A DNA stretch of 64,000 nt, taken from a virus (lineage: Duplodnaviria; Heunggongvirae; Uroviricota; Caudoviricetes). Each line of letters starts with the position of its first letter. The stretch's first letter is position 1. The position numbers and the translations under genes were made by a program. Below are positions 1-48,319 of this stretch, one piece after another. The notes beneath the pieces are model-generated. The model saw only the letters and a list, made by a program, of their open reading frames with translations. It searched no databases and was not told the DNA's origin. The stretch lies in IMG/VR virus record IMGVR_UViG_3300021400_004456. One strand, 5' to 3'.

Positions 1-601
1 TTATATAAGAGAGACATTAAAACCCTTGGATGTGAATTCAAGGTCAGAGTTAGAGACAAAAGCTTCTTTAGCTTTGAGTGGAACAAAATTAACATATAAT
101 ACTTTCAGAGTATTGTTAAATGTTATAAACTAATAGCCTAATAAATCAGATAGATAATATATGTCTCTAAAAGACAGGATGTAGGCAACTTATCAAATAT
201 ATTATCTATGCCATTATAGTATCTATAATGTTATTAGGAGTTAGAATCTTATGACTTTAGTCGTAAGAGGTTCAAAGAGTAGAATTTAATCCTTTTATAC
301 TTTCATATAAAGGAAAAAGATATTTACTTTCTCACGAACCTCAATGTGAAATTATAAACAAAGATGGACAAAAAATTTCTATTAAAATAAACACTGGTGA
401 TTATATAAATAAATATGGTCATATTCACGATGAAGGTATTGGCGATAAAAATTGTGTATGCTTAGATGCAAATGATATGTGTCCTTGTGAATTAAAGTAA
501 TTTGAGAACTAGTTATCACTCGTATAAAAGATAACTTGGTGGGCCGGGGATCTATGCTCTAGACAAAATTCGATACAACCAGTTAAATGCTGGTATAAAA
601 G

Positions 602-635
602 ATACTCTACTTTTATGGAGTATTTTTTATTTTTA
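602..635 (+). terminator. Rho-independent terminator
   Basis: Stem atactc/gagtat followed by a T-run. Confidence 0.45.
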
Positions 636-645
636 ATTTGAAATT

Positions 646-658
646 AAACACCTAATAT
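646..658 (+). promoter_or_regulatory. class-A motif AAACACCTAATAT (candidate promoter element)
   Basis: Exact 13-mer, 31 nt before ATG 689. Confidence 0.5.
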
Positions 659-688
659 ATAGGGCAAATACAAAAGGAGTGGAAAGTA

Positions 689-1018
689 ATGTTTATTAAA
701 ACACTTTATAATATTTACGAAGTTGAAAATATTACAACAAGTAAAGATGCCTATTACGTTGGTGAAATGGCCGTTATACGTAAAAATCAAGTTATTGCAA
801 AAGCAAAAAAATTAACTGATTTAATAGATGAATTCGCAATTGAGGATAAAATTTTTTCTTGGAGTGAAATAAATAATCCAGTAAGTGCTATTGATTTTTT
901 TAAAGATTGTTCTGAAACTGCTAAATTGTATGGTATTTTAAATATCAACAACAAAAAGAAAAAAATCATAGAATATAATCGCACTTCGCAAACTTGGAAA
1001 TTATTAAAAAAATATTAG
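689..1018 (+). CDS. hypothetical protein
   Basis: 109-aa ORF with a GGAG RBS about 8 nt upstream. A class-A motif lies at 646-658 and a terminator at 602-635 upstream. Confidence 0.5.
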   Translation: MFIKTLYNIYEVENITTSKDAYYVGEMAVIRKNQVIAKAKKLTDLIDEFAIEDKIFSWSEINNPVSAIDFFKDCSETAKLYGILNINNKKKKIIEYNRTSQTWKLLKKY

Positions 1019-1029
1019 GAGGTTTCAAA

Positions 1030-1401
1030 ATGAATAAAGAAATCAAATTACCTGTTTCAAAAGAAACTTTTGTTGAAATTTTTAAACATATCAAAGAAAA
1101 TAGAAAAAAGTATGGTAAATTACAAGAAGCTTTAGAAGATTTATCTCCTGGTAATTATTGTAATTTCTGGCCACATTTTACAGAAGAGAATTTATTTATT
1201 GACTTATTGATAGAGGTTCTTAATTTAAAACCTTCTGTTACAAAAATAGAAGAATATTATGTTAATATAATTGATTATTATATTGAGGAAATAATTGATA
1301 AAAAACCAAATGAAATTAAAGCAGAAGATAAAGAAATATCTACACCTGCTAAATTATATGACTATATCGTAAAGAATTACGACAAAATAAAAAAGGAGTA
1401 A
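1030..1401 (+). CDS. hypothetical protein
   Basis: AGGAGG RBS lies immediately before ATG 1030. The ORF-track start at 994 overlaps the upstream gene and lacks an RBS. Confidence 0.5.
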   Translation: MNKEIKLPVSKETFVEIFKHIKENRKKYGKLQEALEDLSPGNYCNFWPHFTEENLFIDLLIEVLNLKPSVTKIEEYYVNIIDYYIEEIIDKKPNEIKAEDKEISTPAKLYDYIVKNYDKIKKE

Positions 1402-1405
1402 TAAA

Positions 1406-2215
1406 ATGAGTAAAGAAGCTACAAACGCATTAGGAAAAAGAATGAAAGATTATGAAAAAGAGGCAAGAAGTTATTTAGCTTCTAAGACACCTGTTATCAT
1501 TAGAATTGATGGGAAGGCCTTTCATACTTTTACAAGAGATTTAAATAGACCTTATGATGTAACTTTCCACTATTGTATGACTGAAACAGTAAAATACTTA
1601 TGTAAGAATGTTCAAAACTGTAAATTAGGATACACTCAATCTGATGAAATCACTTTAGTTTTATTAGATGATTTAAATGAAAACAGTTCAACATTCTTTG
1701 ATAATCAAATTGAAAAGATTTGTTCAGTAACTGCATCTATGGCAACCCTTGCATTTAATAAGGCTGTTTATGAAAAAGTTCAAGAATTCAAAAATAGATT
1801 ATTCTTATCACCTAATGATAAAGAATTAAAAGAATTACTTGATGTATGGACAAGTAAAATGTTTAAAGCTGAATTTGATGCAAGATGTTTTAATGTTCCA
1901 AATAGAACTGAGGTATTAAATGCTTTGATCAATAGACAACAAGATGCTATTAAAAATAGCATTACAATGTTAGCCTTAGCTCACTTTTCTACAAAAGAAT
2001 TAAATAAAGTTAATAGTTCACAAAAGCTTGAAATGCTATCAAAGAAAAATATTGATTGGAATACTTACTCTACGCATTCTAAAAGTGGAGTAGTAATTTA
2101 TAAAGAATTCTTTGATAAAGAAGGTGCTTTAAGAAGCCGTTGGACGGTCGATGAAAACACACCAATTTTTGCTGAACATCCATCATATATTTTAAATTTT
2201 CTATCTAATAAGTAA
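1406..2215 (+). CDS. Thg1-like protein (tRNA-His guanylyltransferase family, 3'-5' nucleotidyltransferase)
   Basis: The N-terminal region (..VIIRIDGKAFHTFTRDL..PYD..) resembles the Thg1/TLP catalytic core. AAGGAG RBS. A strong terminator lies at 2219-2250. Confidence 0.55.
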   Translation: MSKEATNALGKRMKDYEKEARSYLASKTPVIIRIDGKAFHTFTRDLNRPYDVTFHYCMTETVKYLCKNVQNCKLGYTQSDEITLVLLDDLNENSSTFFDNQIEKICSVTASMATLAFNKAVYEKVQEFKNRLFLSPNDKELKELLDVWTSKMFKAEFDARCFNVPNRTEVLNALINRQQDAIKNSITMLALAHFSTKELNKVNSSQKLEMLSKKNIDWNTYSTHSKSGVVIYKEFFDKEGALRSRWTVDENTPIFAEHPSYILNFLSNK

Positions 2216-2218
2216 AAA

Positions 2219-2250
2219 AGAAACCTGTATTTCACAGGTTTTTTATTTTT
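2219..2250 (+). terminator. Rho-independent terminator
   Basis: Stem aaacctgt/acaggttt (loop atttc) followed by tttttattttt. Confidence 0.7.
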
Positions 2251-2299
2251 AAACATAAAAAAGTTGTTTAATAATATATTTAATGGAGGAAAAATTCAA

Positions 2300-2911
2300 A
2301 TGGAGAAAACAATAAAAACCATAGATAGAAACAAGGAAGAATATATAAACGATTATTATAATTGTCTTACTTATGCTAAAAGAATTACAATATTGCCTTT
2401 TGCCTCTTTAATAAAAATGAGTGCATCAGCAATTCAAAGCTTATATAACCACGTTAGTGGAGTTCGTCAAGCTTTATATTGGACACGTGAAAAAGATCAC
2501 GAATACCATAGATATGACGAAATGGATGATAATAGACGTTATGACGAAACTCTTGGTGAATATGAAGCAGTTCTTGATAATGCATATTTGCTTGTTGCTA
2601 ACAAACTTAAAGGTGCTACTAAGTATAAATCTTTATGGGTAAGAATATCTGAAACTCAAACTAAAAAGATAGCTTATGCTAAAGAACATAGTGTTAGAAA
2701 TTTTAAAGCTAAGTTGGTAGCTTGTCCTAATTGTGAATCAAAAGTTAATAAGAAATTTGTAAAGTATGATAGATGCCCTGTATGTGATAAGGATCTTAGA
2801 TCAAAAACTACAATTAATACTTTAAGAGGTTATGAAAATAAAATAATAGCACTAAAAAATGAAGCTAATATTGAATATCGTAAACTTTATGAACTTAACT
2901 TTAAGAAGTGA
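2300..2911 (+). CDS. zinc-ribbon protein, function unknown
   Basis: C-terminal CPNC..(n)..CPVC pair. GGAGG RBS 9 nt before ATG 2300. The ORF-track start at 2264 is TTG without an RBS. Confidence 0.5.
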   Translation: MEKTIKTIDRNKEEYINDYYNCLTYAKRITILPFASLIKMSASAIQSLYNHVSGVRQALYWTREKDHEYHRYDEMDDNRRYDETLGEYEAVLDNAYLLVANKLKGATKYKSLWVRISETQTKKIAYAKEHSVRNFKAKLVACPNCESKVNKKFVKYDRCPVCDKDLRSKTTINTLRGYENKIIALKNEANIEYRKLYELNFKK

Positions 2912-2976: not shown

Positions 2977-3422
2977 ATGACAAAATATGAGAAAAGAGAA
3001 AATGGAATTTTAGACAATACAGTTCCTAAGATGACAGAAACAACTAAAAAATTTTAAAGGATTTTTTAGAAGACGCTGAAACTTTTTATTTAGCTGTTAA
3101 AACTCCTCGTAAGGATGAGTGGAAAGAATATCACGGTGTTTATAGAGATTGCAGATTAAAAATCGATAGAGATGTTCTTTTATCAGCAGGTATTCACTTC
3201 TATAATTGTCGTGAAACTGATAGTGGCAGTGATTATTTAGGTTCACTTGAAGATTTTGTAGGAGTTAACTTTAGTGGTACTGTTCTATTATTAGAAGAAA
3301 TTGATTATGGAAAGTGGAAAAATTTCCTTCCATTGAACAACGAAAGAATGGTTCAATGGACTTTCAATGATGATGAAACATTTGAAGCATTAAAGGGAAC
3401 AATATTAGAGCTATCTGAATAA
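2977..3422 (+). CDS. hypothetical protein encoded in two frames (26-aa ORF 2977-3057 plus start-less 125-codon ORF 3048-3422); needs a -1 shift at an A6 run or carries a homopolymer error
   Basis: AGGAGG RBS before ATG 2977, with stop at 3055-3057. The -1 frame is open from 3048 to the TAA at 3420-3422 with clean coding character (..LKDFLEDAETFYLAVKTPRKDEWKEYHGVYRDC..), but has no ATG/GTG/TTG for about 95 codons and no RBS. Confidence 0.4.
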
Positions 3423-4087: not shown

Positions 4088-5605
4088 ATGTTATATGCAT
4101 TAATTGCAGTCGGAGTCGCTGTGGCTCTTTTACTTATTTTCTTTTTCGCTGGTTATGTTAAAGCTGCTCCAGATGAGGCTTTAATTATTTCTGGTTTTGG
4201 CAAGAGAAAAATTTTAATTGGTAAGGCAGGATTTAGAATTCCGTTCTTACAAAGATTAGACAGACTTTCATTAAAGGTATTCCAAGTAGATATTAAGACA
4301 GATGAAGCAATTCCAACATCTAATTTCATCAATATTAGAGTTGATGGTGTTGCCAATTTAAAGATTTCATCTAACCCAGAATTACTAGGATTAGCAGCAG
4401 AATCTATTCTTAATATGAATGAAAATGAGTTAATCGCTCAAGTTCAGCAAGTATTACAAGGTAATATGCGTGAAATTATCGGTACTGTTGATATTAAGAA
4501 ACTTGTTCAAGATAGACAAGGTGTAGCACAGTCAGTTAAGGAAAACGTAGTTCCTGATATGGCTAAGATGGGTATTGAGGTAGTTAACTTTAATATTCAA
4601 TCATTCTCAGATGATAATCACGTTATTGAAAATCTAGGTATTGATAACATTTCTCAAATTTCAAAGGATGCAGCTATTGCAAAGGCAAATGCTGATAGAG
4701 ATGTAACAATTGCAAAGTCTTTAGCTGAGGAAGCAGCAAACCGTTCAAGAGTAGAAGCAAATCAAAAGATTATTGAACAAAATACTGAACTTTCATTAAA
4801 GGAATCTTCATTAAAGCAAAAGACAGATACTGCAAAGGCAACAGCTGATGCCGCATATGAAATCGAGGAACAAAAGAGAAAGCAAGAAATCAATATTGCT
4901 CAAATCAATGCTGATATTGCTAAGCGTGAACGTGAAGTTGAACTAGGACAAAAGGAAGTTGAACTTCAAGAAAGAAAACTTCAAGCTCAAATCAATAAGC
5001 AAGCTGAAGCTGAAAAGTATGCTACTGAACAAAAAGCACAAGCTGATTTATTCACACGCCAAAAGGCTGCAGAAGCTAGAAAGTATGAATTAGAGCAAGA
5101 AGCCGAAATGCAAAAGATTAGAGCCGAAGCTGATAAAGTTGCTAAAGAAAAAGCAGCAGAAGCTTTAAAAATTGAAGCTTTAGCTAAAAAAGAAGCAGCA
5201 CTTGCGGAAGCTCAAGGTATTGAAGCGAAGGGTAAGGCTGAAGCTGATGCAATCCTAGCTAAAGCAGAAGCTATGAAGCAATATGGTGAGGCTGCAACAT
5301 TGCAATTAATTCTTGATTCTGATGTATTACCAAAGGTTGTTGAGGCATATTCAAAACCAATGGCTGAAGCTTTATCTCATATTGATTCTATCACTATGTA
5401 TGGCGAAGGTAATACTGCTAAGCTTAATGAAGAAATTACTAGAAATGGTACACAAATCTTCTCAGGTCTTGAAAAGGCTACAGGCTTAGATATTAAATCA
5501 TTACTTGCCGGCTATTTAGGCGGAAAATTAATTTCTAAAGATGCTCAACCAGCTGTAATTAATACTGAAACTCCTAAAGTTCCTAAAACTCCTAATAAAA
5601 AGTAA
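4088..5605 (+). CDS. SPFH/band-7 flotillin-like membrane protein
   Basis: N-terminal TM helix, SPFH-like domain, then a long Ala/Glu/Lys-rich coiled coil (EA repeats) as in bacterial flotillins (FloT/YqiK type). AAGGAGG RBS. Confidence 0.75.
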   Translation: MLYALIAVGVAVALLLIFFFAGYVKAAPDEALIISGFGKRKILIGKAGFRIPFLQRLDRLSLKVFQVDIKTDEAIPTSNFINIRVDGVANLKISSNPELLGLAAESILNMNENELIAQVQQVLQGNMREIIGTVDIKKLVQDRQGVAQSVKENVVPDMAKMGIEVVNFNIQSFSDDNHVIENLGIDNISQISKDAAIAKANADRDVTIAKSLAEEAANRSRVEANQKIIEQNTELSLKESSLKQKTDTAKATADAAYEIEEQKRKQEINIAQINADIAKREREVELGQKEVELQERKLQAQINKQAEAEKYATEQKAQADLFTRQKAAEARKYELEQEAEMQKIRAEADKVAKEKAAEALKIEALAKKEAALAEAQGIEAKGKAEADAILAKAEAMKQYGEAATLQLILDSDVLPKVVEAYSKPMAEALSHIDSITMYGEGNTAKLNEEITRNGTQIFSGLEKATGLDIKSLLAGYLGGKLISKDAQPAVINTETPKVPKTPNKK

Positions 5606-7562: not shown

Positions 7563-7865
7563 ATGTCAAGGCCTGCTTATAGATTATGGACAAATAAATT
7601 TGAAGATGATTATAAGAATTTAGGTTTTACTGAGGCTGAAACAACCCGTATAATCAATTTTCTTTATGATGTGGATGAAGATTACACCTCAAAGAAAGAA
7701 TACTTAAAATCAGCCAAAGAATATGCTAAAAGCTTAAAAAAAGAAACAGGATTAACTGTAGGAATTGAAACATTATTTGGAATGCCTGTTTCAGATGGTT
7801 ATAGATATTGTTCTAAATGTCAACAATTTTTTTGGGAAGACGAAAATTGTGGATGTGAAGAATAA
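7563..7865 (+). CDS. hypothetical protein with C-terminal Cys cluster
   Basis: 100 aa ending ..CSKCQQFFWEDENCGC. AAGGTGA RBS. Confidence 0.5.
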   Translation: MSRPAYRLWTNKFEDDYKNLGFTEAETTRIINFLYDVDEDYTSKKEYLKSAKEYAKSLKKETGLTVGIETLFGMPVSDGYRYCSKCQQFFWEDENCGCEE

Positions 7866-10453: not shown

Positions 10454-11455
10454 ATGAAAAAGAAAATTTATAAATTTTTATCATTGCTTTTAGTTTTCAC
10501 TTTCTTTTTTTCTTTAACTTCTTGTTCACTATTTAATTTTGATGAAACTAAATCTGATATTCCATCAACTACTTTTATTAAAAATACAGATCCTGTTATA
10601 GATATTCCGACTACAGAAGATGGTGGATTATCTGAGGAAGAATTACAAATTAAAAAAGAAGAAATGGAGTTAAAACTTCAATATGAAGAACTAGTAGCTC
10701 AAAGAGATGAATTAAAACAACAATTAAAAGCTCTCGAAGAAAAATATCAAGTAAAGGTTTCTGCTATTGATGAATTAAGACAAAAAATTATAGAATTAGA
10801 AAATGAAATAGAAATTAACTTTTCTAATTTTACTTATTTAGAAAACGTTGTTTTAACTTCTTCTCTTTATATTAAGCATACATCTAAAAGAATTGAAAAT
10901 AGAACAACTATCATTTCTACCTCTCAAGGTTCGGGTTCTATTATAAAAGAAGATGGCGAATATTATTATTGCTTAACTAACAATCACGTAATTGCCGACG
11001 AAGTATTAGTTAGTGAAACATCTACCTCTGTTTATGATTTTTATGGCAACGAATATAAAGCTGAAATAATTATGGCATCGCCTTCTTATGATATGGCAAT
11101 TTTAAAAATCCAAAAAAAGCCAAATGTATCTTTAAATGTAATAAAATTTGCTAAAAACAATCCTGTAAAAGATGATATTGTTATTTCTATTGGTAATCCT
11201 TTAGGCTTAATCAATTCTATTCAATATGGTAAAGTTGTTAGATATTCATCAATATCATCAGTGGCTTATGATGTTATTTGCCATAGTGCAATTATAAAAC
11301 AAGGTTCTTCTGGTGGTATGCTTTTAAATAAAAATTTTGAAGTTATAGGTATAAATACTTGGGGACTTTCATCTGAAACTGAAAGCTATGGTGGAGCTTC
11401 CCCTGTTATGCAAATTTATACATTTTTAGATATGGTTGGAATAGAGGTGAACTAA
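10454..11455 (+). CDS. lipoprotein S1-family (trypsin-fold) serine protease with coiled-coil linker
   Basis: Lipobox LTSC. Catalytic motifs TNNHVIADE (His), D, and GSSGGML (Ser). GGAGG RBS. Confidence 0.65.
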   Translation: MKKKIYKFLSLLLVFTFFFSLTSCSLFNFDETKSDIPSTTFIKNTDPVIDIPTTEDGGLSEEELQIKKEEMELKLQYEELVAQRDELKQQLKALEEKYQVKVSAIDELRQKIIELENEIEINFSNFTYLENVVLTSSLYIKHTSKRIENRTTIISTSQGSGSIIKEDGEYYYCLTNNHVIADEVLVSETSTSVYDFYGNEYKAEIIMASPSYDMAILKIQKKPNVSLNVIKFAKNNPVKDDIVISIGNPLGLINSIQYGKVVRYSSISSVAYDVICHSAIIKQGSSGGMLLNKNFEVIGINTWGLSSETESYGGASPVMQIYTFLDMVGIEVN

Positions 11456-15852: not shown

Positions 15853-17091
15853 ATGAAATTTAAAAATATATTATTATCTGGCTTTGCATTAACTACTTCA
15901 TTGCTTACTTTGGTATCCTGTGGTGAAAAAAATATTGATGATGCTAATTTAATTACTGATGAACCAACAGAAGTTCAGCCGATTAGAAATACCGATAATG
16001 AAATAGTAGATGATGTTGATAATCCTATAAATAACAATGAAAACATTTTCGTTAACAAACATATCCCAAACATTACTTTAGCAACAGATGAAGATAAAAC
16101 AGATCATTCAAACGTTGAACAATCTTTAATAAACGTTTCTAATTTTGCCGAATATTCTTGTGTTCAAGTAATAATTGAAGATGAAAATAACGAATCGACG
16201 GGTTGGGGCTCCGGTGTAATTTATGCTTTCGAAAATGAAGAAACCTACTATGTTTTAACTAACACTCACGTAGTCAAAAACTCAAATAATTTTTCAATTA
16301 AAACTGCTTATGAAACAGTAGATGCCCAATTAATTGGTTATTCGAATTTATATGATGTAGGTTTTTTAAAATTTACATCCGATAAAACCTATAACCTTAC
16401 AAAATTCACGACAGATGTAACTAAGGCATCTTATTGTGTTGCAGTAGGAACTCCATTAAAAAATCAATTCTTCAATTATAATACAGTAGGAAATGTTTCT
16501 TGGTATGATGAAGATAGTATTTATCATACAGCTTCTATTAATTCGGGTAATTCCGGTGGTGGCTTATATAACTTAGATGGTATTTGCCTTGGGCTAGATA
16601 ATCTGAAAGAATCAGGAACAACAACATTGAGTGGTACTTTTATTGAGGACGTTTATCACGCTGTTTCAACAAATGCAATTATTAAAGCTGTAAACGAATT
16701 AACAGCTCCTAAATTAGGCATTACTTCAATTGAAATTTCTTCTGTTGTATCTATTGCAACTGAATTTGAAACTTATGATTTATATGAAGCTTATTTAAGA
16801 CAATATCAAGCCGAACCTATTTCAAAGGAGAGGTTTGATTTCTATAAAAAATTTGTTAAAAATCATCCTGATATTACAGCAGGCGAATTAATTGAAAATG
16901 TAGCCGAAAATACAAATTCCTATAATTTAATTCAAAAAGGAGATATTTTATTAAAAGTAGATGATATAGAAATTTCTTCTATTTCAACCGTGAGAAGTGT
17001 TTTAGCAACTAAAAAGCTTGGAGACACTATTACATTTGAAGTTTTAAGAAATGACAAAACTATTACTGTTTCAGTTCCTTTAAATAAATAA
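15853..17091 (+). CDS. HtrA-like lipoprotein serine protease with C-terminal PDZ-like domain
   Basis: Lipobox LVSC. Trypsin-fold motifs TNTHVV (His) and GNSGGGLY (Ser). C-terminal PDZ-like segment (GDILLKVDD..ITFEVLRNDK). AGGTGA RBS. Confidence 0.65.
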   Translation: MKFKNILLSGFALTTSLLTLVSCGEKNIDDANLITDEPTEVQPIRNTDNEIVDDVDNPINNNENIFVNKHIPNITLATDEDKTDHSNVEQSLINVSNFAEYSCVQVIIEDENNESTGWGSGVIYAFENEETYYVLTNTHVVKNSNNFSIKTAYETVDAQLIGYSNLYDVGFLKFTSDKTYNLTKFTTDVTKASYCVAVGTPLKNQFFNYNTVGNVSWYDEDSIYHTASINSGNSGGGLYNLDGICLGLDNLKESGTTTLSGTFIEDVYHAVSTNAIIKAVNELTAPKLGITSIEISSVVSIATEFETYDLYEAYLRQYQAEPISKERFDFYKKFVKNHPDITAGELIENVAENTNSYNLIQKGDILLKVDDIEISSISTVRSVLATKKLGDTITFEVLRNDKTITVSVPLNK

Positions 17092-18373: not shown

Positions 18374-18400
18374 TTTTAATTTAAAAAGGAGATTTTGCCA

Positions 18401-20596
18401 ATGAAAAAGAAACATTTATTTTTAGGAGTATCCTTACTTTCGTTAGGATTCTTATCATTAACCTCTTGCGGTGGTAATAGTACACTTTCTAAAACTCAAA
18501 ATGTGGAACCGACTATTGCAGAAACTGATATTCCGTCAATTGAAGATCCATCTACAATAAATTCTGACCAACCTGAAAATGAACTTTGCGTAGTAACTTT
18601 TTATTTAAACGGTGAAAAATATCATACAGAAAGTTTTGTAAAAAATGATTATCTTGTTTTTCCAACAATCACTCCTGCCGAAGGGGAAGTTTTATCTGAT
18701 TGGCAAGATGCAACCGGAAAAATAATTACTGCAAAGCGTATTAGAGTAACTGATGATGCAGAGTATTATATTTTCTCTTATGAAGCAACTGAAACAACCA
18801 AATTTTTAGTAACTTATGTAGTCGATGTTCCTTCAAATACTACTTTAACAAGAAAGATTAAAGAAGGATTATATGCTCCTAAGTTAGTTCCAACAAGACC
18901 ATATTATGAATTAGAAGGTTGGTATACTGATAAAGAATGTACTAAGGCTTATGATTTTGCCACTCCTGTTACTTCTGCTATAACATTGTATGCAAAGTGG
19001 ACACAAACATCTTGGACACTTTTTATGTGTAATGGAACTACTGAAGAAAATGTGGTTGTAGATAAAATTGAACACATTAATAAAATTCCAACTTTAACCG
19101 CTCTTGAAAAAGATGGATACATTTTTAATGGCTGGGTTTATGCAGATGGAACTCCTGTTTTAAAAGATGAAGCCATAACAAAAGATACTTATATTTACGC
19201 CGATTGGCTTGAAATTGTAGAAGGTATGGATGTTTCTTATGACGATTGGCTAAGAGTTTCTTATGATGAAGCAGCAACTACAAATTATTTCAACACTTTA
19301 AATGCTCCTGCTTATAGTTATACTAATTATGAAGTTGCTAATTCAATCACTCCAAAGTTCGAAATAATTAGAAGTGAAATGAAAGTAAGAATATATTTTG
19401 ATGGTGATATTTTAGCAGATAGAATTAAATCTATTACTCAATTAAATTCTAATTCAACAACAAAAATAACAGACTTTAGTGTTTATTCAAATTATATTGA
19501 ATTCATTTCTGATGGAACATCATTAGATTTTACTGTTACATTAAGTAATAACAAATCTAAAACTTATTTCTTACCAGAGCCATCTAAGAATGAAAATATT
19601 TCTTTTGCTATTGAAGATTTAATAGTTAATAATCAAATGGTCAATCAATATCAATATTACACAATTAAAACATCTTTAATTAAAGATTTACCCGATGATG
19701 CTATTTTAACAGTAGAATGTGAAAATGAAAATTTCTCTTATGATATAGAAACACAATCTTTTAAAATCCCGGTTTCTTACTTAATTGAAAATAGTAAAGA
19801 ATTAACTCTAAATTATAAAATGGTTGTTTCTACCAATGATTATTGTATTAAAAAGTCTTGTTCCAATACCTTAAAGAATGTTCCTTATACATTAACTCCG
19901 TCTAAAGCTGTAGTTTCTGATAAAATGTACAGCTCTACAACAGGAAAATATATTGGCAAAACTTTGTCTTATACATTTGACGTTGAATTACCAGCAGATG
20001 CTTTTTCTATTACAGATTTAAAAGTATCTTTAACAATAGATGGTCAAGTTTATACTGAAAATAATATTAAAACAATTTCAATCTCTGATGATAAAAAGAC
20101 TGTTCATCTTACTTTCTATAATTCATTTATTCCTAAATCACACGATGGTAATATTGAATATGAAATAACATCATCTAAATTCAAATTAAATTCGGGAGAT
20201 AATGTTTTTGAATTTGAATTACCTCAAACCTATAAATTTGTAGCATATCCTTATAACGATTATATATATGATATATATAATATTCATTTAGGAACAGATG
20301 GCTATTTATATTTTGATACAACTGTATATGATGAAAATTATATTTTAGCAAAACTCGCAATTTATTTCTATAAAGACGATGATTCAAATCGCATCGTTTA
20401 TATAACTGAATTAAATACTGAATTAAAAAATTTCGAGTTTAATACCGAATATAGAATTTATTCTTCAAAATTTAAAGATACTAGATATTCATCATTCTCA
20501 TTAGGCGATGTCGTTATTTTAAATAAAGAAACTAATGAAACTGTTAAAGTTAATGATACTTATGGTAATTATGGAACAACACTTGAAATAAAATAA
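18401..20596 (+). CDS. large lipoprotein
   Basis: Lipobox LTSC. GGAG RBS 10 nt before ATG 18401; the ORF-track start at 18395 is TTG. Confidence 0.6.
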   Translation: MKKKHLFLGVSLLSLGFLSLTSCGGNSTLSKTQNVEPTIAETDIPSIEDPSTINSDQPENELCVVTFYLNGEKYHTESFVKNDYLVFPTITPAEGEVLSDWQDATGKIITAKRIRVTDDAEYYIFSYEATETTKFLVTYVVDVPSNTTLTRKIKEGLYAPKLVPTRPYYELEGWYTDKECTKAYDFATPVTSAITLYAKWTQTSWTLFMCNGTTEENVVVDKIEHINKIPTLTALEKDGYIFNGWVYADGTPVLKDEAITKDTYIYADWLEIVEGMDVSYDDWLRVSYDEAATTNYFNTLNAPAYSYTNYEVANSITPKFEIIRSEMKVRIYFDGDILADRIKSITQLNSNSTTKITDFSVYSNYIEFISDGTSLDFTVTLSNNKSKTYFLPEPSKNENISFAIEDLIVNNQMVNQYQYYTIKTSLIKDLPDDAILTVECENENFSYDIETQSFKIPVSYLIENSKELTLNYKMVVSTNDYCIKKSCSNTLKNVPYTLTPSKAVVSDKMYSSTTGKYIGKTLSYTFDVELPADAFSITDLKVSLTIDGQVYTENNIKTISISDDKKTVHLTFYNSFIPKSHDGNIEYEITSSKFKLNSGDNVFEFELPQTYKFVAYPYNDYIYDIYNIHLGTDGYLYFDTTVYDENYILAKLAIYFYKDDDSNRIVYITELNTELKNFEFNTEYRIYSSKFKDTRYSSFSLGDVVILNKETNETVKVNDTYGNYGTTLEIK

Positions 20597-40419: not shown

Positions 40420-40857
40420 ATGATAAAAACAAGTTATTTTGCTAAATATAAGAAACCTAATGGTGTAGCAATAACTCTTTATCCACCTAAGTGGTATGAT
40501 GGCCCTGTATATAAAGATTTAGCTCCTACTGAAAAAATTTTAGCTTGGTTTAAAGGCTTACCTAAAGAAGAACAAGAAACTCCTAAAACTGCTAGAATTT
40601 ATGAGACTCTTTATAGAAGAGATGTATTAGCTCACTTAGATGTTCATAAAGTTGCTAATGATTTAGAAAATAAAGTTTTACTTTGTTATGAAACATCAGA
40701 TAAATTTTGTCATAGACACGTTGTAGCTAAATGGCTACGTGAAAATGGATATGAATGCCGTGAAACTGAAATGAATGATCAAGATTTATATTTGTATTAT
40801 GGTAAACTTTATGAAATGTTTGGTGATAAATTACAAATCTTAGAAAAAGAAAAATAA
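40420..40857 (+). CDS. DUF488-family protein
   Basis: The C-terminal ..VLLCYETSDKFCHRHVVAKWL matches the DUF488 signature (LLCxE..xxCHR..IA.WL). Confidence 0.55.
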   Translation: MIKTSYFAKYKKPNGVAITLYPPKWYDGPVYKDLAPTEKILAWFKGLPKEEQETPKTARIYETLYRRDVLAHLDVHKVANDLENKVLLCYETSDKFCHRHVVAKWLRENGYECRETEMNDQDLYLYYGKLYEMFGDKLQILEKEK

Positions 40858-43049: not shown

Positions 43050-43811
43050 ATGTCTAATAATAAGGTTTATACTCATCTAAAAAGATTAATATATTTAAGT
43101 TTCTTCATCACATTAGTTATTTTTTGTTTTAACTTGGATATGTTTTCATCGTATAGTGTGTATCAAAAGATCTTTGAATGTCCATTCTTACTTGTTTTTT
43201 ATGGACTTACTAAGATAATGTCATTCCAGTTAGCATATGTTCTAATGTACATTTTAACATTTATTTTGTTAGCGGATTCATCGTCGCTAATTGGATTGTC
43301 AAAAAAATATGTTGTTCTTTTAAAAAAATTAATAGATATAAAAAAAGAACCAACATCTAGCGATGAAGAATACATAGCTCAAACTAATAAAATGATAGAT
43401 TTAATGGAAAAAGAACAATTTTCTTTAACAACAATCTTTTTATCATTATTGTCAACATTCTTATATGTTAATTTTATGATTGTAATGCTAAGTGAAATAA
43501 AGACTTTCGAACCACTTTCACAAATAGAAAAAACATTCTTATGGTTCAATTTTAATGAAAGTAATTTATTGTTGTTTATCTTAACAATATTTTTTGTTAT
43601 AGTAAGCCATATAGTTTTAATCTTAACTTCCAAAAAAGAAAAGAATATTAAAATATTAAAAATATTATTTTATTTAGCCGGTATTTCTTTATTATTAAAT
43701 CCTATTTATAATTATCCAGCGTTTGATTTATTCTTTATTTTCTTAACTCTAAAAACTATTATTGTAAAACTATTTAACACTTTTATCAAAAAAGGAGGAC
43801 GCTTTAAATGA
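43050..43811 (+). CDS. polytopic membrane protein
   Basis: At least five hydrophobic helices. AAGGAG RBS. Class-A motif at 43013-43025. Confidence 0.5.
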   Translation: MSNNKVYTHLKRLIYLSFFITLVIFCFNLDMFSSYSVYQKIFECPFLLVFYGLTKIMSFQLAYVLMYILTFILLADSSSLIGLSKKYVVLLKKLIDIKKEPTSSDEEYIAQTNKMIDLMEKEQFSLTTIFLSLLSTFLYVNFMIVMLSEIKTFEPLSQIEKTFLWFNFNESNLLLFILTIFFVIVSHIVLILTSKKEKNIKILKILFYLAGISLLLNPIYNYPAFDLFFIFLTLKTIIVKLFNTFIKKGGRFK

Positions 43812-46800
43812 AAAGAATTCTTTCTAAAATTAACAATCCTATTTTAAATACAGTATTTGCTAATGTTCAAGCTTCATATAAAGCTGACACTGAATGTCCA
43901 AATCTTTTCTGTATTAGTTTTGATAGCGATAATATCAATTCTAAAACATTATCTCTATTAGCCACTGAATTATCTAAAACTTTTGATAAAACTAAGTATT
44001 CTTATTTCACTTTTGCTACAAATAATAAATCAATTGAATTGTTAAACACTTTAGTTTCATTAAATTTTCCTGATTATAATACTTATGGAAGCAACAATCA
44101 TTTAAATATTGATTTTAATAATCATTTTACTTCCCCTGATGATAAAGTTATCATTGAAAGAATGGCTGTTTTATTAGGCTTTAAAGCATCCGTTATTAAG
44201 CCATCTAATAGTTACAATAAAGAACAAGAATTTGATAAATGGGTTCCTAATAAATATAACAACAATAATGTTTTCAAAAACTCTAATGCAGGCTATTTTG
44301 CTCTTACAGAATTACCTAGAACAAAACAAGAATTAGAAGATTTTACGTTCTCAAGAGTTACTGTTGAAGGTGAAATCTTTTCTATTGATGCAAGAGAAAC
44401 TAAAAACGGTAAAATTATGACTGTTGTTAAAATTACCAATTATCAAGAAAGTGCTTTAGTTCGTTTCTTTACATCTAAACCATTAAACTTAAAAAATCAT
44501 ATGAATATAAAAGTTGCTGGTAAAATCGTTTATGATGAATATTTGCAAACTATTTGTATTCAAGGAGAAGAAAAAAATCTAGAACTTGACACAATGGGTT
44601 CTTATACTTCTGAACTTGATTTAGAAGGTGAAGACTCTAAATTACAAAGAGTTGAATTAAATGTTCATACAAACTTTTCTACTCAAGATGGTATGTCTCA
44701 CGCCGAAGATTACTTTAAGGTAGCAAAACATTTTGGTATCAATGCATTAACTATTACTGACAATGATGGCGTTCAGGCGTTTCCAGAAGTTGAAAAATTG
44801 GCGAAGAAATATAATATCACTGCCAACTATGGTGTTGAAATGAATGTTATCAACACCGATGAATACAAAATTTTCTATAATAGAACTAATATTAAAGATA
44901 CTTCTAAAGTAAATTTTGTTGCTGTCGATATTGAAACAACAGGCTTCTCTGGTATTTATGATAGAATTATTGAAATTGGTGCAGTTAATTTATCAACAGG
45001 TGAAACATTTGATAAGTTAATTAAAATTGATGATCCTGAAAGATTAACTGATAAAATTATTGAATTAACTGGTATCACTCCAAAGCTATTAGAAGCCGAA
45101 GGTGAAGATTACGAAGAAGTAATGAAAGCCTTTGTTGAATTTGCAGGTGATAGCGTTCTTATTGGTCACAATGCCACATTCGACGTTTATTTTATAGAAA
45201 ATCAATATAAAATTTTATTCAATAAAACTATTAAATATTCATTTGTAGATACATTAAATATGTCTCGTTCTTTATTAAGAGATAAAATGAAATTATTTGG
45301 TCTTGATAAGGTTTGTAAAAAATGTGGTGTTGAATTAGAAACTCACCATAGAGCTTACTGTGATGCTAAGGCCTCTGGTGGCATTTTTACAACTTTAAAG
45401 AAAGAATTAAGCACTACTGAAGGTGAGGTAGGTTCTGCTGATTTGTTAAACTATGAAGTTAGAACAAGTTCAAAGACTTCAAAAGAAGCTATGGAAAATT
45501 ATTTAAATGAAAATAATGTTTCTTATACTGCTGATGGTAATAAAACAATTACTTTCTCTTTTGCTATGAAAAACTTCAATCCAGGAGACTTTAAGTATAA
45601 AGTAGTTTCTTGCTTAAAGCATAGAGAATTCGATTTAAATGAATTAAATGAATTGATTACTATGGAAGATATTTTAAATCACGCTAGAGGAACACATTAT
45701 AATTTTATTGCTAAAAATCAAAAAGGTTTAAAAGCAATGTATAAAATGATTTCATTAGCTAGTACTGAAAGAATTACTTCTCGTGGTGTAGCAATTTTTG
45801 AAAGTGACATTGTTAATAACAAAGAATTATTAGATAACTGTTTCATTGGAACATCTGGTAATTTGGGTATGTTCAAAACATTATTCGAAAAAGGTTTTGA
45901 TCACATTGGTTCTATGCTAAACGTAATCAATTATATTGAATTACAATCATTAGAAGCTTATGCCTCAGTATCCGATTCACCTTTTAAGTATCATCATATT
46001 AAAGATTGTGTATTATCTCTTTATGAATACTCAAAGAAAAATAAAATTCCTATGTGCTATACTTCAAATGTTCACTATGCATATCCTAAAATCGGACAAT
46101 ATAGAAACATTTTAGTTAATACATTAAGAGTAGGTCATATTTCTCACGACTTAAAGGGTGTAGATAATATTGGTTTTGCTGGTTTTATAAAAACTGATGA
46201 TTTAGTAAAAACTTTAAAAGATGATTATGGTTTTATTGCTCCTACTGCTCAAAAAATGATTTTTGATAATCCTCAATCTTTACAATCTCAAATTGAGCCT
46301 ATAGTTATTATTCCTAATAAGTTATTCGTTCCTTCTGATGATTTCTTAAAAGATAAGGTATTGGATGTAGTTGGACATAAAGTAGCATCTATTAAAGAAG
46401 AATTCTTATCTATTCTAGCTGAATCATTAAAGAAATATGAAATTGACGGTAAATTGCCTGAATATATTCAAAATCGTTATGATAAAGAAGTTAACGCTTT
46501 ATTATCTACTGGTTACTATATCATTTATTATATTTGTTACTTATTAGTTAAGAAATCTAATGATGATGGCTATGTTGTAGGTTCAAGAGGCTCTGTTGGT
46601 TCATCATTTATTGCTAACCTTTTACATATTTCTGATGTTAATTCATTAGCTCCTCATTATAGATGTCCTAAATGTAATTATCAAATGTATAAGGGTGTAA
46701 AAGATTTATTTGTTGAAGAAGATATTTTTGGCGATTTAACAAGTAAATATAATGATAGTAAATTAAGAAAGAATATTAATAGTGTTCAAGATGGTTACGA

Positions 46801-48319
46801 TTTACCAAAAGCAAAATGTCCTTGCTGTGGTGAAGAGTTAATTAGAGATGGACACGATATTCCATTTGAAACATTCTTAGGATTTAATGGAGATAAAGTT
46901 CCTGATATCGACTTAAACTTTAGTGGTGAATATCAAGGAAAGGCCCATAATTTCTGTAAAGAGGTTTTTGGTGCCGAATATTCTTTTAGAGCCGGAACTG
47001 TTCAAACTATTGCAGAAAAAACTGCTGAAAATTTTACAAAAGATTATTATGCTTCAATAGGACAAAAAGTATCAGATACTGAATGTTCTCGCAGAAGTGT
47101 TTATATTACTGATATTAAAAAAACAACTGGACAACATCCGGCAGGTATTGTTGTAATTCCAGAAGGATATGAAATTGAAGATTTTACTCCAGTTCAATAT
47201 CCGGCAAATGATCCTAATAATGATTTCAAAACAACTCACTTTGATTATCACGGAGCCTTAGATGAAGTATTATTAAAGTTCGATATTCTAGGACACGATG
47301 ATCCAACATTATTAAAATTTTTAATGGATAATGTAAAAGCTAATCCTTCAAATTATCCTTTTGATAATGTAGCCGATATTCCCGTAGTCGATAAAGAAAC
47401 TTATGACTTCTTACGAACTAATGATAAAGGTAAAGTTAATTCTTGGGGTATTTCTGAATTCGGAACTAATTTCGTTCAAGGTATGTTGAAGAAAACTAAT
47501 CCTCAATCCTTTGCAGAACTAGTTAAAATATCTGGTTTATCACACGGAACTGATGTATGGCAAACCAATGCCGAAGCTTTAGTTGAGGGTTCTACTAAAT
47601 ATGGTAAAATCCCATTTGAGCAAACAATCGGATGTCGTGATGATATTATGGTTCAATTAATCGAATACGGTTTAGAACCTAAAATGGCTTTTGATATTAT
47701 GGAATTTGTAAGAAAAGGTAAATTACACAAAGAACCTGAAACTTCTAAAGAAAAATGGGAAAAGTATCAAACTGTTATGAGAGAACACAAAGTTCCTGAA
47801 TGGTATATTTGGTCTTTATCAAGAATTAAATATATGTTCCCTAAAGGTCACGCTGTTGCTTATGTAACATCGGCATTAAAGATTGCTTGGTTTAAAGCTC
47901 ATAGGCCTATGGATTATTATCAAGCATATTTCTCAATTCGTGCTGAAGGTTCGATGGATGCACATATAATGTCTTCTAATGATGTTGAAAAACTTAAAGC
48001 TGAAATTGAAAGAATTAAAAAAGATAAAAATGCAACTATCACTGAAAAAGATAGAGTTACTTTCCTTGAAGTTGAAATTGAAATGTTAGAGCGTGGTATT
48101 AAATTTGCTGCCCCTGATATTAACAAGAGTCATTATTCTAAATTTATTCCATTAGATGATAATACATTATTAATGCCTTTATCTTCTATTTCTGGAGTTG
48201 GTTTAGCAATTGCTCAAAGTGTATATGAAAACAGACCTTACAATTCTATTGAAGAATTAAAAGAAAAAGGAAAAGCTAATAAAACCTTTATTGAAGGATA
48301 TCAGCAATTAAATCACTAA
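43808..48319 (+). CDS. polC: DNA polymerase III alpha subunit, PolC type
   Basis: 1503 aa. A DEDD 3'-5' exonuclease (VAVDIETTGFS ... HNATFD ... HRAYCD) is inserted in the PHP/polymerase region, which is the PolC-specific layout. OB-like N-terminal region. GGAGG RBS. Confidence 0.9.
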   Translation: MKRILSKINNPILNTVFANVQASYKADTECPNLFCISFDSDNINSKTLSLLATELSKTFDKTKYSYFTFATNNKSIELLNTLVSLNFPDYNTYGSNNHLNIDFNNHFTSPDDKVIIERMAVLLGFKASVIKPSNSYNKEQEFDKWVPNKYNNNNVFKNSNAGYFALTELPRTKQELEDFTFSRVTVEGEIFSIDARETKNGKIMTVVKITNYQESALVRFFTSKPLNLKNHMNIKVAGKIVYDEYLQTICIQGEEKNLELDTMGSYTSELDLEGEDSKLQRVELNVHTNFSTQDGMSHAEDYFKVAKHFGINALTITDNDGVQAFPEVEKLAKKYNITANYGVEMNVINTDEYKIFYNRTNIKDTSKVNFVAVDIETTGFSGIYDRIIEIGAVNLSTGETFDKLIKIDDPERLTDKIIELTGITPKLLEAEGEDYEEVMKAFVEFAGDSVLIGHNATFDVYFIENQYKILFNKTIKYSFVDTLNMSRSLLRDKMKLFGLDKVCKKCGVELETHHRAYCDAKASGGIFTTLKKELSTTEGEVGSADLLNYEVRTSSKTSKEAMENYLNENNVSYTADGNKTITFSFAMKNFNPGDFKYKVVSCLKHREFDLNELNELITMEDILNHARGTHYNFIAKNQKGLKAMYKMISLASTERITSRGVAIFESDIVNNKELLDNCFIGTSGNLGMFKTLFEKGFDHIGSMLNVINYIELQSLEAYASVSDSPFKYHHIKDCVLSLYEYSKKNKIPMCYTSNVHYAYPKIGQYRNILVNTLRVGHISHDLKGVDNIGFAGFIKTDDLVKTLKDDYGFIAPTAQKMIFDNPQSLQSQIEPIVIIPNKLFVPSDDFLKDKVLDVVGHKVASIKEEFLSILAESLKKYEIDGKLPEYIQNRYDKEVNALLSTGYYIIYYICYLLVKKSNDDGYVVGSRGSVGSSFIANLLHISDVNSLAPHYRCPKCNYQMYKGVKDLFVEEDIFGDLTSKYNDSKLRKNINSVQDGYDLPKAKCPCCGEELIRDGHDIPFETFLGFNGDKVPDIDLNFSGEYQGKAHNFCKEVFGAEYSFRAGTVQTIAEKTAENFTKDYYASIGQKVSDTECSRRSVYITDIKKTTGQHPAGIVVIPEGYEIEDFTPVQYPANDPNNDFKTTHFDYHGALDEVLLKFDILGHDDPTLLKFLMDNVKANPSNYPFDNVADIPVVDKETYDFLRTNDKGKVNSWGISEFGTNFVQGMLKKTNPQSFAELVKISGLSHGTDVWQTNAEALVEGSTKYGKIPFEQTIGCRDDIMVQLIEYGLEPKMAFDIMEFVRKGKLHKEPETSKEKWEKYQTVMREHKVPEWYIWSLSRIKYMFPKGHAVAYVTSALKIAWFKAHRPMDYYQAYFSIRAEGSMDAHIMSSNDVEKLKAEIERIKKDKNATITEKDRVTFLEVEIEMLERGIKFAAPDINKSHYSKFIPLDDNTLLMPLSSISGVGLAIAQSVYENRPYNSIEELKEKGKANKTFIEGYQQLNH

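What the first reader, a model, noticed from the sequence alone, without database searches (positions are those of the whole stretch)
1406..2215. Thg1-like 3'-5' nucleotidyltransferase encoded in a phage-like replication region
The N-terminal region resembles the Thg1/TLP catalytic core. Bacterial and archaeal TLPs repair 5'-truncated tRNAs by templated 3'-5' addition.

In a virulent-phage context this would fit a tRNA-repair counter-defence. That would be analogous to T4 Pnk/Rnl, which reseals tRNAs cut by host anticodon nucleases, but acting on 5' ends. Alternatively it could prime an unusual nucleic-acid transaction.

It sits in a small operon (689..2911) with two unknowns and a zinc-ribbon protein.
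Basis: partly seen in the sequence, partly recalled or inferred. Interest (0 to 1): 0.6.

Follow-up and report, generated by a model that had tools for sequence, protein, structure and literature searches.

The report
Phage Thg1-like tRNA 5'-end repair enzyme
The gene at 1406..2215 really does encode a Thg1-like reverse (3'-5') nucleotidyltransferase in a large, probably phage, genome, but such phage enzymes are common, already annotated and already proposed to repair tRNAs, so this is an ordinary new member of a known kind.

Summary
ORF 1406..2215 (+, 269 aa) matches Pfam Thg1 (E 4e-30), PHROG 4717 'tRNA-His guanylyltransferase' over its full length (E 7e-82), and the Bacillus thuringiensis Thg1-like protein (TLP) structure (E 2e-52). 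A confident model finds only Thg1/TLP folds. The metal carboxylates D35, D80 and E81 are present, and the gene is under purifying selection.

It is not new as a kind. Homologues occur in 164 GenBank phage records, at least 589 IMG/VR contigs and more than 7,600 metagenomic proteins. Both functional ideas were published in 2010 and 2021.

Comparative context supports RNA-end repair. The closest relatives sit in an RlaP-TLP-YqeY-CCA-adding-enzyme module. RNA-repair genes are about five times denser within 2 kb of phage TLPs than at 6-10 kb, and some TLPs directly follow tRNA arrays.

In this window none of those partners, and no tRNA gene, is present.

The proposed operon is only partly right. 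ORF1 is a strain-specific insert, ORF2 is an orphan, and a conserved terminator hairpin separates the TLP from the zinc-ribbon gene.

Counter-defence is untested, and I found no defence nuclease that trims tRNA 5' ends. Verdict: new member of a known kind, low interest.

The parts
1406..2215 (+). Gene for a 269-aa Thg1-like protein (TLP), a 3'-5' nucleotidyltransferase
   Evidence: Pfam PF04446 E 4.4e-30. PHROG 4717 E 6.7e-82. BtTLP 4KGK E 2.2e-52. The model's fold hits are all Thg1/TLP. 17 synonymous against 8 non-synonymous codon changes relative to sister strain L174.
1394..1398 (+). Shine-Dalgarno AGGAG, 7 nt upstream of the TLP ATG and inside the 3' end of ORF2
   Evidence: Read directly from the sequence.
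1508..1510 (+). Codon for D35, the first metal-binding carboxylate (BtTLP D30, human THG1 D29), in the motif RIDGKAFH
   Evidence: Alignment to 4KGK. Residue roles from PMC3701042. Conserved in 100% of 204 relatives.
1643..1648 (+). Codons for D80 and E81, the second and third carboxylates (BtTLP D75/E76), in the motif QSDEI
   Evidence: invariant. Roles from PMC3701042.
1931..1933 (+). Codon for N176, which replaces the tryptophan of the WRQQD motif. That tryptophan is present in 99% of 204 relatives and in BtTLP.
   Evidence: The substitution is shared with the 97%-identical strain. Its consequence is unknown.
1781..1867 (+). Residues about 126-154, a variable-length helical segment between the two halves that is absent from BtTLP
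   Evidence: Gap in the alignment to 4KGK. Length varies in all relatives. Modelled as helices with pLDDT above 90.
2093..2152 (+). Residues 230-249, a beta-hairpin in the C-terminal half. It is the counterpart of the hairpin that reads the tRNA elbow in archaeal TLP.
   Evidence: Strands E230-238 and E241-249 in the model. Aligned to BtTLP. Hairpin role from PMC4820378. The equivalence is inferred.
1030..1401 (+). ORF2, 123 aa, an orphan gene that ends 4 nt before the TLP start. It is probably co-transcribed; its role is unknown.
   Evidence: GGAGG upstream. Called as a gene. No homologue in 5.8 billion proteins other than itself. Conserved in L174 with 5 synonymous and 1 non-synonymous change.
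2218..2244 (+). Terminator-like hairpin plus T-run immediately after the TLP stop codon
   Evidence: 4 sites found against 0.9 expected. The stem is conserved in L174, and the differences lie only in the loop.

Best explanation
The gene encodes a catalytically competent bacterial-type Thg1-like protein (TLP) carried by a large, probably phage, genome of an anaerobic low-GC host.

Proposed mechanism, by homology to characterised TLPs:
- The enzyme binds a tRNA through its acceptor stem and elbow, independently of the anticodon.
- It activates a 5'-monophosphate end with ATP or GTP.
- It then adds nucleotides in the 3'-5' direction, using the 3' strand of the acceptor stem as a Watson-Crick template.
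- It stops when the stem is full length.

In the infected cell this would restore tRNAs, host or phage, whose 5' ends have been shortened. That keeps translation running and forms the 5'-end arm of the phage RNA-end repair toolkit.

Shown here: family membership, fold, conserved active site, selective constraint, and clustering with RNA-repair genes in related phages.

Inferred: the tRNA substrate, the repair role in vivo, and any link to host defence.
For: Identity:
- establish the family and the fold.
- The protein is far closer to the repair-type BtTLP (E 2e-52) than to archaeal TLP (1e-7) or eukaryotic Thg1 (1e-6 to 3e-3).

Active site:
- D35, D80 and E81, plus R33, S79, K104 and R160, are all present and 99-100% conserved among 204 relatives.
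- R33, S79, K104 and R160 are the counterparts of yeast R27, S75, K96 and R133. Their roles are taken from PMC3701042.

Constraint: 17 synonymous against 8 non-synonymous changes relative to a sister strain.

Context in relatives:
- The three closest relatives (60-61% identity) lie in an RlaP-[HD_4]-TLP-YqeY-CCA-adding-enzyme module.
- Among 47 dereplicated TLP loci, 27 have a tRNA gene or a recognised RNA-repair gene within 6 kb. These are the CCA-adding enzyme (9), T4-Pnk-like (9), RlaP (7), PTH2 (4), YqeY (4) and kinase-phosphatase-RNA ligase (4).
- The density of these genes falls from 9.3 per 100 kb at 0-2 kb to 1.8-1.9 at 6-10 kb.
- In five loci the TLP directly follows a tRNA array.

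Biochemistry of TLP repair: PMC3701042 and PMC4820378.
Against: - In this window the usual partners are absent. There is no CCA-adding enzyme, RlaP, Pnk, RNA ligase, PTH2 or YqeY anywhere in 64 kb (tblastn E<=0.01). There is no tRNA gene up to contig position 71.6 kb.
- The nearly invariant W of the WRQQD motif is N here.
- No phage TLP has been assayed in the papers I could search.
- The defence tRNases described there cut anticodon loops or stems, D-loops, the 3' strand of the acceptor stem, or CCA tails. None cuts the 5' end. The damage this enzyme would repair during infection is therefore unidentified.
- The neighbourhood analysis rests on naive ORF calls, single-linkage clusters and one annotated representative per cluster.
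Confidence: 0.65

Rival explanations
1. A dedicated tRNA-His maturation enzyme. It would add G-1 opposite C73 to tRNA-His, phage-encoded or host, so that histidyl-tRNA synthetase can charge it. This is the reading implied by the database name 'tRNA-His guanylyltransferase'.
For: - The family's founding activity is G-1 addition.
- TLPs can bind tRNA-His in a second, Thg1-like mode (PMC4820378).
- The idea was raised for phage 201phi2-1 (PMC2904730).
- Some TLP loci hold a tRNA-His gene within 10 kb.
Against: - No tRNA-His, and no tRNA at all, is present in the 71.6 kb readable here.
- Only 4 of 107 tRNA genes near phage TLPs are His.
- The tRNA-His genes in L043, L046 and L059 already encode G at -1 opposite C73. 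In bacteria an encoded G-1 is kept by RNase P (established knowledge).
- The protein is of the anticodon-independent repair type (PMC4820378).
- Where partners exist, they are general RNA-end repair genes.
Confidence: 0.12
2. A mitochondrial-type 5' editing enzyme. It would replace mismatched 5' nucleotides that are encoded in tightly packed phage tRNA genes.
For: TLPs do this in Dictyostelium mitochondria (PMC3701042). Phage tRNA arrays next to TLPs are tightly packed, with gaps of 2-5 nt.
Against: Among 90 distinct tRNAs near phage TLPs, only one has a mismatch at acceptor pairs 1-3, a tRNA-Met with A1/A72. There are no tRNA genes in this window.
Confidence: 0.03
3. An enzyme acting on something other than tRNA. 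Possibilities are 5' extension or priming of another phage RNA or DNA, or synthesis of a small nucleotide product.
For: - The palm domain is related to polymerases, GGDEF domains and cyclases (PMC2904730; weak fold hits to Cas10 and cyclases).
- In this phage the gene has no tRNA-related neighbour.
- W176N is a lineage-specific change in a conserved motif.
Against: - The protein is 39-47% identical to TLPs that sit in tRNA and RNA-repair contexts.
- The C-terminal half with the tRNA-elbow hairpin is retained.
- No precedent was found in the literature searches.
Confidence: 0.07
4. A decaying or functionless passenger gene.
For: - The gene sits in a patch with signs of flux. A neighbouring 148-aa gene is broken by a 1-base loss.
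- A 237-aa gene upstream is truncated, and ORF1 is a strain-specific insert.
- W176N.
- The usual partners are missing.
Against: - The reading frame is intact and has a good Shine-Dalgarno.
- All catalytic positions are kept.
- 17 synonymous against 8 non-synonymous changes relative to the sister strain.
- The model is confident.
Confidence: 0.05

Closest known systems
Bacillus thuringiensis Thg1-like protein, BtTLP (PDB 4KGK/4KGM; PMC3701042)
   Same: - Same family and same fold: E 2e-52, model TM 0.84-0.88.
- Same three carboxylates and nucleotide-contacting residues.
- Same C-terminal half, including the beta-hairpin.
- Presumably the same ATP/GTP-activated, templated 3'-5' repair of 5'-truncated tRNAs.
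   Different: - About 39-47% identity only.
- An extra helical segment of about 29 residues lies between the halves.
- N replaces the conserved W of WRQQD.
- R replaces BtTLP K43, the lysine specific to ATP activation.
- It is encoded by a phage-like element rather than a bacterial chromosome.
- Its activity has not been measured.
Phage 'tRNA-His guanylyltransferases' (PHROG 4717), for example Bacillus phage Bcp1 gp164 and Fusobacterium phage Fnu1 gp147
   Same: - Full-length match to the PHROG (E 7e-82).
- 42-47% identity to these proteins.
- Large phage genomes, with the gene among early and nucleotide-metabolism genes.
- In Fnu1 an SPFH/prohibitin gene lies two genes downstream, as it does here.
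   Different: - No GenBank phage is close; the best is below 50% identity.
- The nearest relatives (60-61%) are uncultured contigs.
RlaP-TLP-YqeY-CCA-adding-enzyme module of uncultured phages (L004, L005, L010)
   Same: These TLPs are the closest relatives at 60-61% identity. L004 also shares an SPFH gene (78% over the fragment seen) and an NAD ligase (38%).
   Different: The window lacks RlaP, YqeY and the CCA-adding enzyme throughout its 64 kb. Here the TLP is flanked by orphan genes.
T4 Pnk/Rnl1 tRNA repair
   Same: The logic is the same: a phage enzyme restores tRNAs damaged in the infected cell. Pnk-like and RNA-ligase genes do cluster with TLPs in other phages.
   Different: - The chemistry is unrelated: templated 5' extension rather than end healing and sealing of an anticodon-loop break.
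- No Pnk or Rnl is present in this window.
- The T4 system has a known host nuclease (PrrC). For TLP no 5'-trimming defence nuclease is known.
Eukaryotic Thg1 (human THG1 3OTB, C. albicans 3WBZ)
   Same: Same palm fold and same carboxylates.
   Different: - Only the N-terminal domain aligns, at E 1e-6 to 3e-3.
- Where eukaryotic Thg1 carries its HINNLYN-type motif after WRQ.D (recalled from memory), this protein reads AIKNSITM.
- An anticodon-independent repair type is expected, rather than a tRNA-His-specific one.

Membership tests
Thg1/TLP superfamily (Pfam PF04446) | Significant match to the catalytic-domain profile, above the curated cut-off | tested here: met
   104.7 bits against a cut-off of 29.2, E 4.4e-30, covering profile positions 2-130 of 130.
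Thg1/TLP superfamily (Pfam PF04446) | Three metal-binding carboxylates (human D29/D76/E77; BtTLP D30/D75/E76) | tested here: met
   D35, D80 and E81 align to them and are invariant in relatives. Their roles come from PMC3701042.
Thg1/TLP superfamily (Pfam PF04446) | [quoted passage not shown] | tested here: met
   R33, S79, K104 and R160 are present and 100% conserved. The K44/BtTLP K43 position is R48 here and is K or R in relatives. The residue list comes from PMC3701042.
Thg1/TLP superfamily (Pfam PF04446) | C-terminal domain (Pfam PF14413) | tested here: inconclusive
   No PF14413 hit at E<=1. However, residues 155-266 align to BtTLP 126-237 (E 1e-23), and the model superposes over 257-262 columns.
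Thg1/TLP superfamily (Pfam PF04446) | Thg1 fold (RRM-like palm plus C-terminal domain) | tested here: met
   Model pLDDT 88. The top 32 PDB hits are all Thg1/TLP, with TM up to 0.88.
Thg1/TLP superfamily (Pfam PF04446) | 3'-5' nucleotide addition activity | not testable with these tools
   Needs a biochemical assay.
Thg1/TLP superfamily (Pfam PF04446) | Homotetramer (dimer of dimers), with the active site at the dimer interface | not tested
   Only a monomer was modelled.
Bacterial repair-type TLP (as opposed to eukaryotic tRNA-His-specific Thg1) | Closer to characterised TLPs than to Thg1 | tested here: met
   BtTLP E 2e-52, archaeal MaTLP 1e-7, C. albicans Thg1 1e-6, human and yeast 2-3e-3.
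Bacterial repair-type TLP (as opposed to eukaryotic tRNA-His-specific Thg1) | Beta-hairpin that reads the tRNA elbow and measures acceptor-stem length | tested here: inconclusive
   A hairpin at residues 230-249 is modelled with pLDDT above 90 and aligns to BtTLP. Equivalence to the MaTLP hairpin (PMC4820378) is inferred, not superposed.
Bacterial repair-type TLP (as opposed to eukaryotic tRNA-His-specific Thg1) | Preference for 5'-truncated tRNAs of any identity; ATP or GTP used for activation | not testable with these tools
   Biochemical property described in PMC3701042.
PHROG 4717 (phage tRNA-His guanylyltransferase) | Full-length profile match | tested here: met
   E 6.7e-82, residues 7-265 against profile positions 3-238 of 250.
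Phage RNA-end repair module (RlaP / TLP / YqeY / CCA-adding enzyme, or TLP with Pnk, RNA ligase or PTH2) | At least one partner RNA-repair gene or tRNA gene within a few kb of the TLP | tested here: not met
   No partner family anywhere in the 64-kb window. No tRNA in the window or up to contig position 71.6 kb. The sister strain has only HD_4, CTP_transf_like and a CoaE-like kinase upstream. The remaining 92 kb of the contig could not be read.
T4-type Pnk/Rnl tRNA repair | Polynucleotide kinase-phosphatase plus RNA ligase | tested here: not met
   No match in the window to Pnk-like, Pnkp-like or RNA-ligase clusters or in the Pfam scans.

The most novel reading that the evidence does not exclude
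In this lineage the TLP has been uncoupled from the usual RNA-repair partners and carries a unique W176N change. It may act as a stand-alone counter-measure against a host nuclease, not yet described, that trims the 5' strand of tRNA acceptor stems. Alternatively it may have been retargeted to a non-tRNA 5' end, possibly together with the orphan ORF2 that is translationally adjacent to it.
Probability: 0.08. Interest if true: 0.6.

Novelty: new member of a known kind. Interest (0 to 1): 0.22.

Why it matters
The biological role of bacterial and phage TLPs is still unproven. They repair 5'-truncated tRNAs in vitro, but nobody has shown what makes such tRNAs in a cell.

Phage TLPs are abundant, and in many phages they are embedded in RNA-end repair modules. 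A tractable phage carrying one would therefore be a good place to look for the missing source of damage, possibly a defence nuclease.

This particular copy adds little. It comes from an uncultured phage, stands alone among orphan genes, and its annotation and hypothesis are already in the literature.

Tried and rejected
1. Single-protein scan of IMG/VR found nothing. An alignment-based scan was needed.
2. An exact 38-mer of the gene is not in IMG/VR, so the contig could not be extended that way. Only contig positions 1-71.6 kb were readable.
3. Mitochondrial-type 5' editing is rejected. Only 1 of 90 nearby tRNAs has a mismatch at acceptor pairs 1-3.
4. A tRNA-His-specific role is disfavoured.
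5. I tested whether ORF1, ORF2 or ORF4 are disguised RNA-repair partners.
   - ORF1 and ORF2 have no homologues at all.
   - ORF4 belongs to a family of about 190-aa zinc-ribbon proteins (358 representatives). It has no PDB sequence match, no fold match and no Pfam or NCBIfam match.
   - None of the three recurs next to TLPs elsewhere.
6. The PADLOC scan of the TLP and its neighbours gave nothing meaningful.
7. Rfam and ARAGORN on the whole window gave nothing.
8. Placing the phage by its polymerase failed. It is PolC-like, with only 33-37% identity to unannotated or doubtful 'phage' records. The 1389-aa ORF has no hit.
9. The GTDB scan gave no host clue. The best hits are 46% identical, on gut and rumen MAG contigs of many phyla.
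10. Literature searches found no experimental study of a phage TLP.

Full report

Yes. An ATG-initiated ORF of 269 codons occupies 1406..2215 on the + strand. An AGGAG lies 7 nt upstream of the start.

- Pfam PF04446 (Thg1): 104.7 bits against a gathering score of 29.2, E 4.4e-30, over the entire 130-position model.
- PHROG 4717, 'tRNA-His guanylyltransferase': matched over the full length, E 6.7e-82.
- Best solved structure: the Bacillus thuringiensis Thg1-like protein (BtTLP, 4KGK), E 2.2e-52, with both halves aligned. Next come an archaeal TLP (1e-7) and eukaryotic Thg1 proteins (1e-6 to 3e-3).
- An AlphaFold model built on 33 relatives has mean pLDDT 88. Its 32 significant PDB fold matches are all Thg1/TLP chains. 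The best is 4KGM, with TM 0.84-0.88 on the target.
The C-terminal half is nevertheless clearly homologous to that of BtTLP.

**2. Is it likely to be active?**

BtTLP numbering equals window numbering minus 5 in the N-terminal half.

- The carboxylates D30/D75/E76 of BtTLP (human D29/D76/E77; PMC3701042) correspond to D35, D80 and E81.
- The counterparts of yeast R27, S75, K96 and R133 are R33, S79, K104 and R160.
- All of these are 99-100% conserved in an alignment of 204 relatives.
- The ATP-specific lysine of BtTLP (K43) is R48 here, and K or R in relatives.
- The only strongly conserved position at which this protein departs is W176 of the WRQQD motif, which is N. The same N occurs in a 97%-identical sister strain. 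I cannot say what this does.
- Residues about 126-154, absent from BtTLP, fall in a stretch whose length varies in all relatives. They are modelled as a helical extension.
- Against the sister strain (L174) the gene shows 17 synonymous and 8 non-synonymous codon differences. This is purifying selection.

**3. What is the surrounding element?**

- The window is the first 64 kb of a 163,889-bp ENA metagenome contig.
- GC content is 25-33% and every substantial ORF is on the + strand.
- Recognisable genes are SPFH/flotillin, NrdG, two trypsin-like proteases, guanylate kinase, a primase, an NAD-dependent ligase, NrdD, DUF488, a 1503-aa PolC-like polymerase, ERF, a topoisomerase and SSB.
- Just beyond the window lie a UvrD/RecD-type helicase, MPTase-PolyVal, an AAA protein and a DHH phosphoesterase.
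- Most other ORFs match nothing.
- This pattern, together with the closest TLP relatives lying on IMG/VR viral contigs, makes a large phage of an anaerobe the likely source.
- No virion, terminase or integrase gene lies in the part I could read. 'Phage' is therefore probable and 'virulent' is untested.
- There are no tRNA genes and no Rfam family.

**4. The 'operon'**

- ORF2 (1030..1401) ends 4 nt before the TLP start and has its own GGAGG.
- A hairpin plus T-run at 2218-2244 follows the TLP stop.
- In the sister strain L174 (94.5% nucleotide identity) the hairpin stem is unchanged and only the loop differs. This fits a working terminator.
- The zinc-ribbon gene (2300..2911) is therefore most likely a separate unit.
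- Window 662-968, most of ORF1, is simply absent from L174.
- ORF1 and ORF2 have no homologue other than themselves among 5.8 billion proteins.
- The zinc-ribbon protein belongs to a family of about 190-aa proteins with 358 representatives. The family has a confidently modelled helix / zinc ribbon / helix C-terminal half, but no sequence or fold match in the PDB.
- None of these genes recurs beside TLPs in other phages.

**5. Function from comparative context**

TLP relatives are abundant:
- 164 GenBank phage records, most already annotated as tRNA-His guanylyltransferase. They include Bacillus Herelleviridae, Lak megaphages, Caulobacter, Mycobacterium and Fusobacterium phages.
- At least 589 IMG/VR contigs.
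- At least 457 GTDB genome or MAG contigs.
- More than 7,600 proteins at E<=1e-10.

The three closest relatives (60-61% identity: L004, L005, L010) all carry the order RlaP-[HD_4]-TLP-YqeY-CCA-adding enzyme.

I then took 83 loci and dereplicated them to 47 groups at 90% TLP identity. I called ORFs within 6 kb, clustered them, and annotated one representative of each frequent cluster. The commonest neighbours, counted in groups out of 47, are:

| Neighbour | Groups |
|---|---|
| Metallophosphoesterases (three clusters) | 13, 8 and 6 |
| CCA-adding enzyme | 9 |
| T4-Pnk-like kinase-phosphatase | 9 |
| RlaP | 7 |
| tRNA genes | 7 |
| PTH2 | 4 |
| YqeY | 4 |
| Kinase-phosphatase-RNA ligase fusion | 4 |

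- Twenty-seven of the 47 groups have at least one tRNA or RNA-repair item.
- The density of the core repair families falls from 9.3 per 100 kb at 0-2 kb to 1.8-1.9 per 100 kb at 6-10 kb.
- In five loci the TLP starts within a few hundred bases of the last gene of a tRNA array.
- This is good guilt-by-association evidence that phage TLPs work on RNA ends, most plausibly tRNA ends.
- It is association only. It rests on simple ORF calls and one annotated representative per cluster.

**6. Which tRNA function?**

- Only 4 of 107 tRNA genes near TLPs are tRNA-His.
- Those in L043, L046 and L059 encode G at -1 opposite C73. A dedicated G-1 adding role is therefore unlikely.
- Of 90 distinct nearby tRNAs, only one has a mismatch in acceptor pairs 1-3. 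This speaks against mitochondrial-type 5' editing.

General repair of 5'-shortened tRNAs remains. This is the activity shown for BtTLP and for the archaeal TLP:
- anticodon-independent binding through the acceptor stem and elbow;
- activation of the 5' phosphate by ATP or GTP;
- templated 3'-5' filling;
- termination by measuring the stem (PMC3701042, PMC4820378).

**7. What is special about this copy?**

- None of the partner families is present anywhere in the 64 kb (tblastn E<=0.01).
- The sister strain shows HD_4, a CTP_transf_like nucleotidyltransferase and a CoaE-like kinase a few kb upstream. It has no RlaP, YqeY or CCA-adding enzyme.
- The remaining 92 kb of the contig could not be read.
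- The local region shows gene flux: a truncated 237-aa gene (271-500), the ORF1 insert, and a 148-aa gene broken by loss of one base.

**8. Novelty**

- It was listed again among jumbo-phage RNA-repair genes in 2021 (PMC7824862).
- I found no experimental work on a phage TLP.
- The defence tRNases I found described cut anticodon loops or stems, D-loops, the 3' strand of the acceptor stem, or CCA tails. None trims the 5' end. The counter-defence step remains speculation.

**Verdict.** This is a genuine, probably active TLP and a new and rather divergent member of a known, already annotated phage gene family. The proposed function is plausible and somewhat strengthened by the neighbourhood statistics. 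It is neither new nor tested, and in this genome it lacks its usual companions. Interest is low.

Noticed in passing
window 2977..3422: A 148-aa gene is intact in sister strain L174 (genes at 7688-8134; weak LPD28 hit). In the window it is split into a 26-codon ORF (2977-3057) and a start-less open frame running to 3422. The cause is loss of one base: window ACTAAAAAATTTTAAAGG against L174 ACTAAAAAGATTTTAAAGG. The break is identical in three assemblies (L001-L003), which may all derive from the same sample. It could be a pseudogene or an assembly error.
   Followed up: partly
window 1..1018: Window 271-661 matches L174, and 271-500 is only the 3' remnant of a 237-aa gene. Window 1-270 has no counterpart in L174. 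Window 662-968, most of ORF1 (689..1018), is an insert absent from L174. This may be a rearrangement or a genome end close to the start of the contig.
   Followed up: partly
window 4088..5605: A 505-aa SPFH/flotillin protein lies 1.9 kb downstream of the TLP. SPFH or prohibitin genes also lie near the TLP in L062 (41% identity), L004 (78% over a fragment), L043, L059 and Fusobacterium phage Fnu1 (gp144). Either this is shared synteny of one phage lineage or a recurrent association; I did not resolve which.
   Followed up: partly
window 40420..40857: A DUF488 protein (Pfam 'active DUF488-N3 subclade', E 2e-9) also matches the PADLOC candidate-defence model PDC-M45C (E 2.5e-8). Its homologues lie immediately downstream of the TLP in L043, L046 and L059.
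   Followed up: no
window 2300..2911: The zinc-ribbon protein belongs to an uncharacterised family of about 190-aa proteins (358 representatives at E<=1e-3). The conserved motif is HSV..FKA..GCP.CGSKLNK....CPLC..DLRSKTT. The C-terminal helix / zinc ribbon / long helix is modelled with pLDDT above 90. There is no PDB sequence or fold match.
   Followed up: yes
window 49488..53657: A 1389-aa ORF between the polymerase and ERF genes has no Pfam or PHROG match and no tblastn match in 50,697 phage records.
   Followed up: partly
window 10454..11455, 15853..17091, 18395..20596: Two trypsin-like serine proteases are present, the second with a PDZ domain (HtrA-like). There is also a 733-aa protein with Listeria-Bacteroides repeat domains. 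This is unusual cargo for the early region of a phage.
   Followed up: no
window 43808..48319: The replicative polymerase is a 1503-aa PolC-like enzyme with an exonuclease domain. It is only 33-37% identical to the best entries in the phage collection, several of which look like bacterial fragments.
   Followed up: partly
L025 13713-13786; L043 4258-4332; L059 3855-3929: Phage tRNA-His genes near TLPs have two adjacent U-U mismatches in the middle of the acceptor stem (4:69 and 5:68). This holds in two separate TLP groups. In L043 and L059 a G is encoded at -1 opposite C73.
   Followed up: no
L097, L108, L148 (genome contigs): TLP relatives at 38-45% identity sit on contigs binned into archaeal MAGs (Methanobrevibacter, Pacearchaeota, Altiarchaeales) and into many bacterial MAGs, often on 100-250 kb contigs. 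Many of these may be phage contigs binned with cellular genomes.
   Followed up: no
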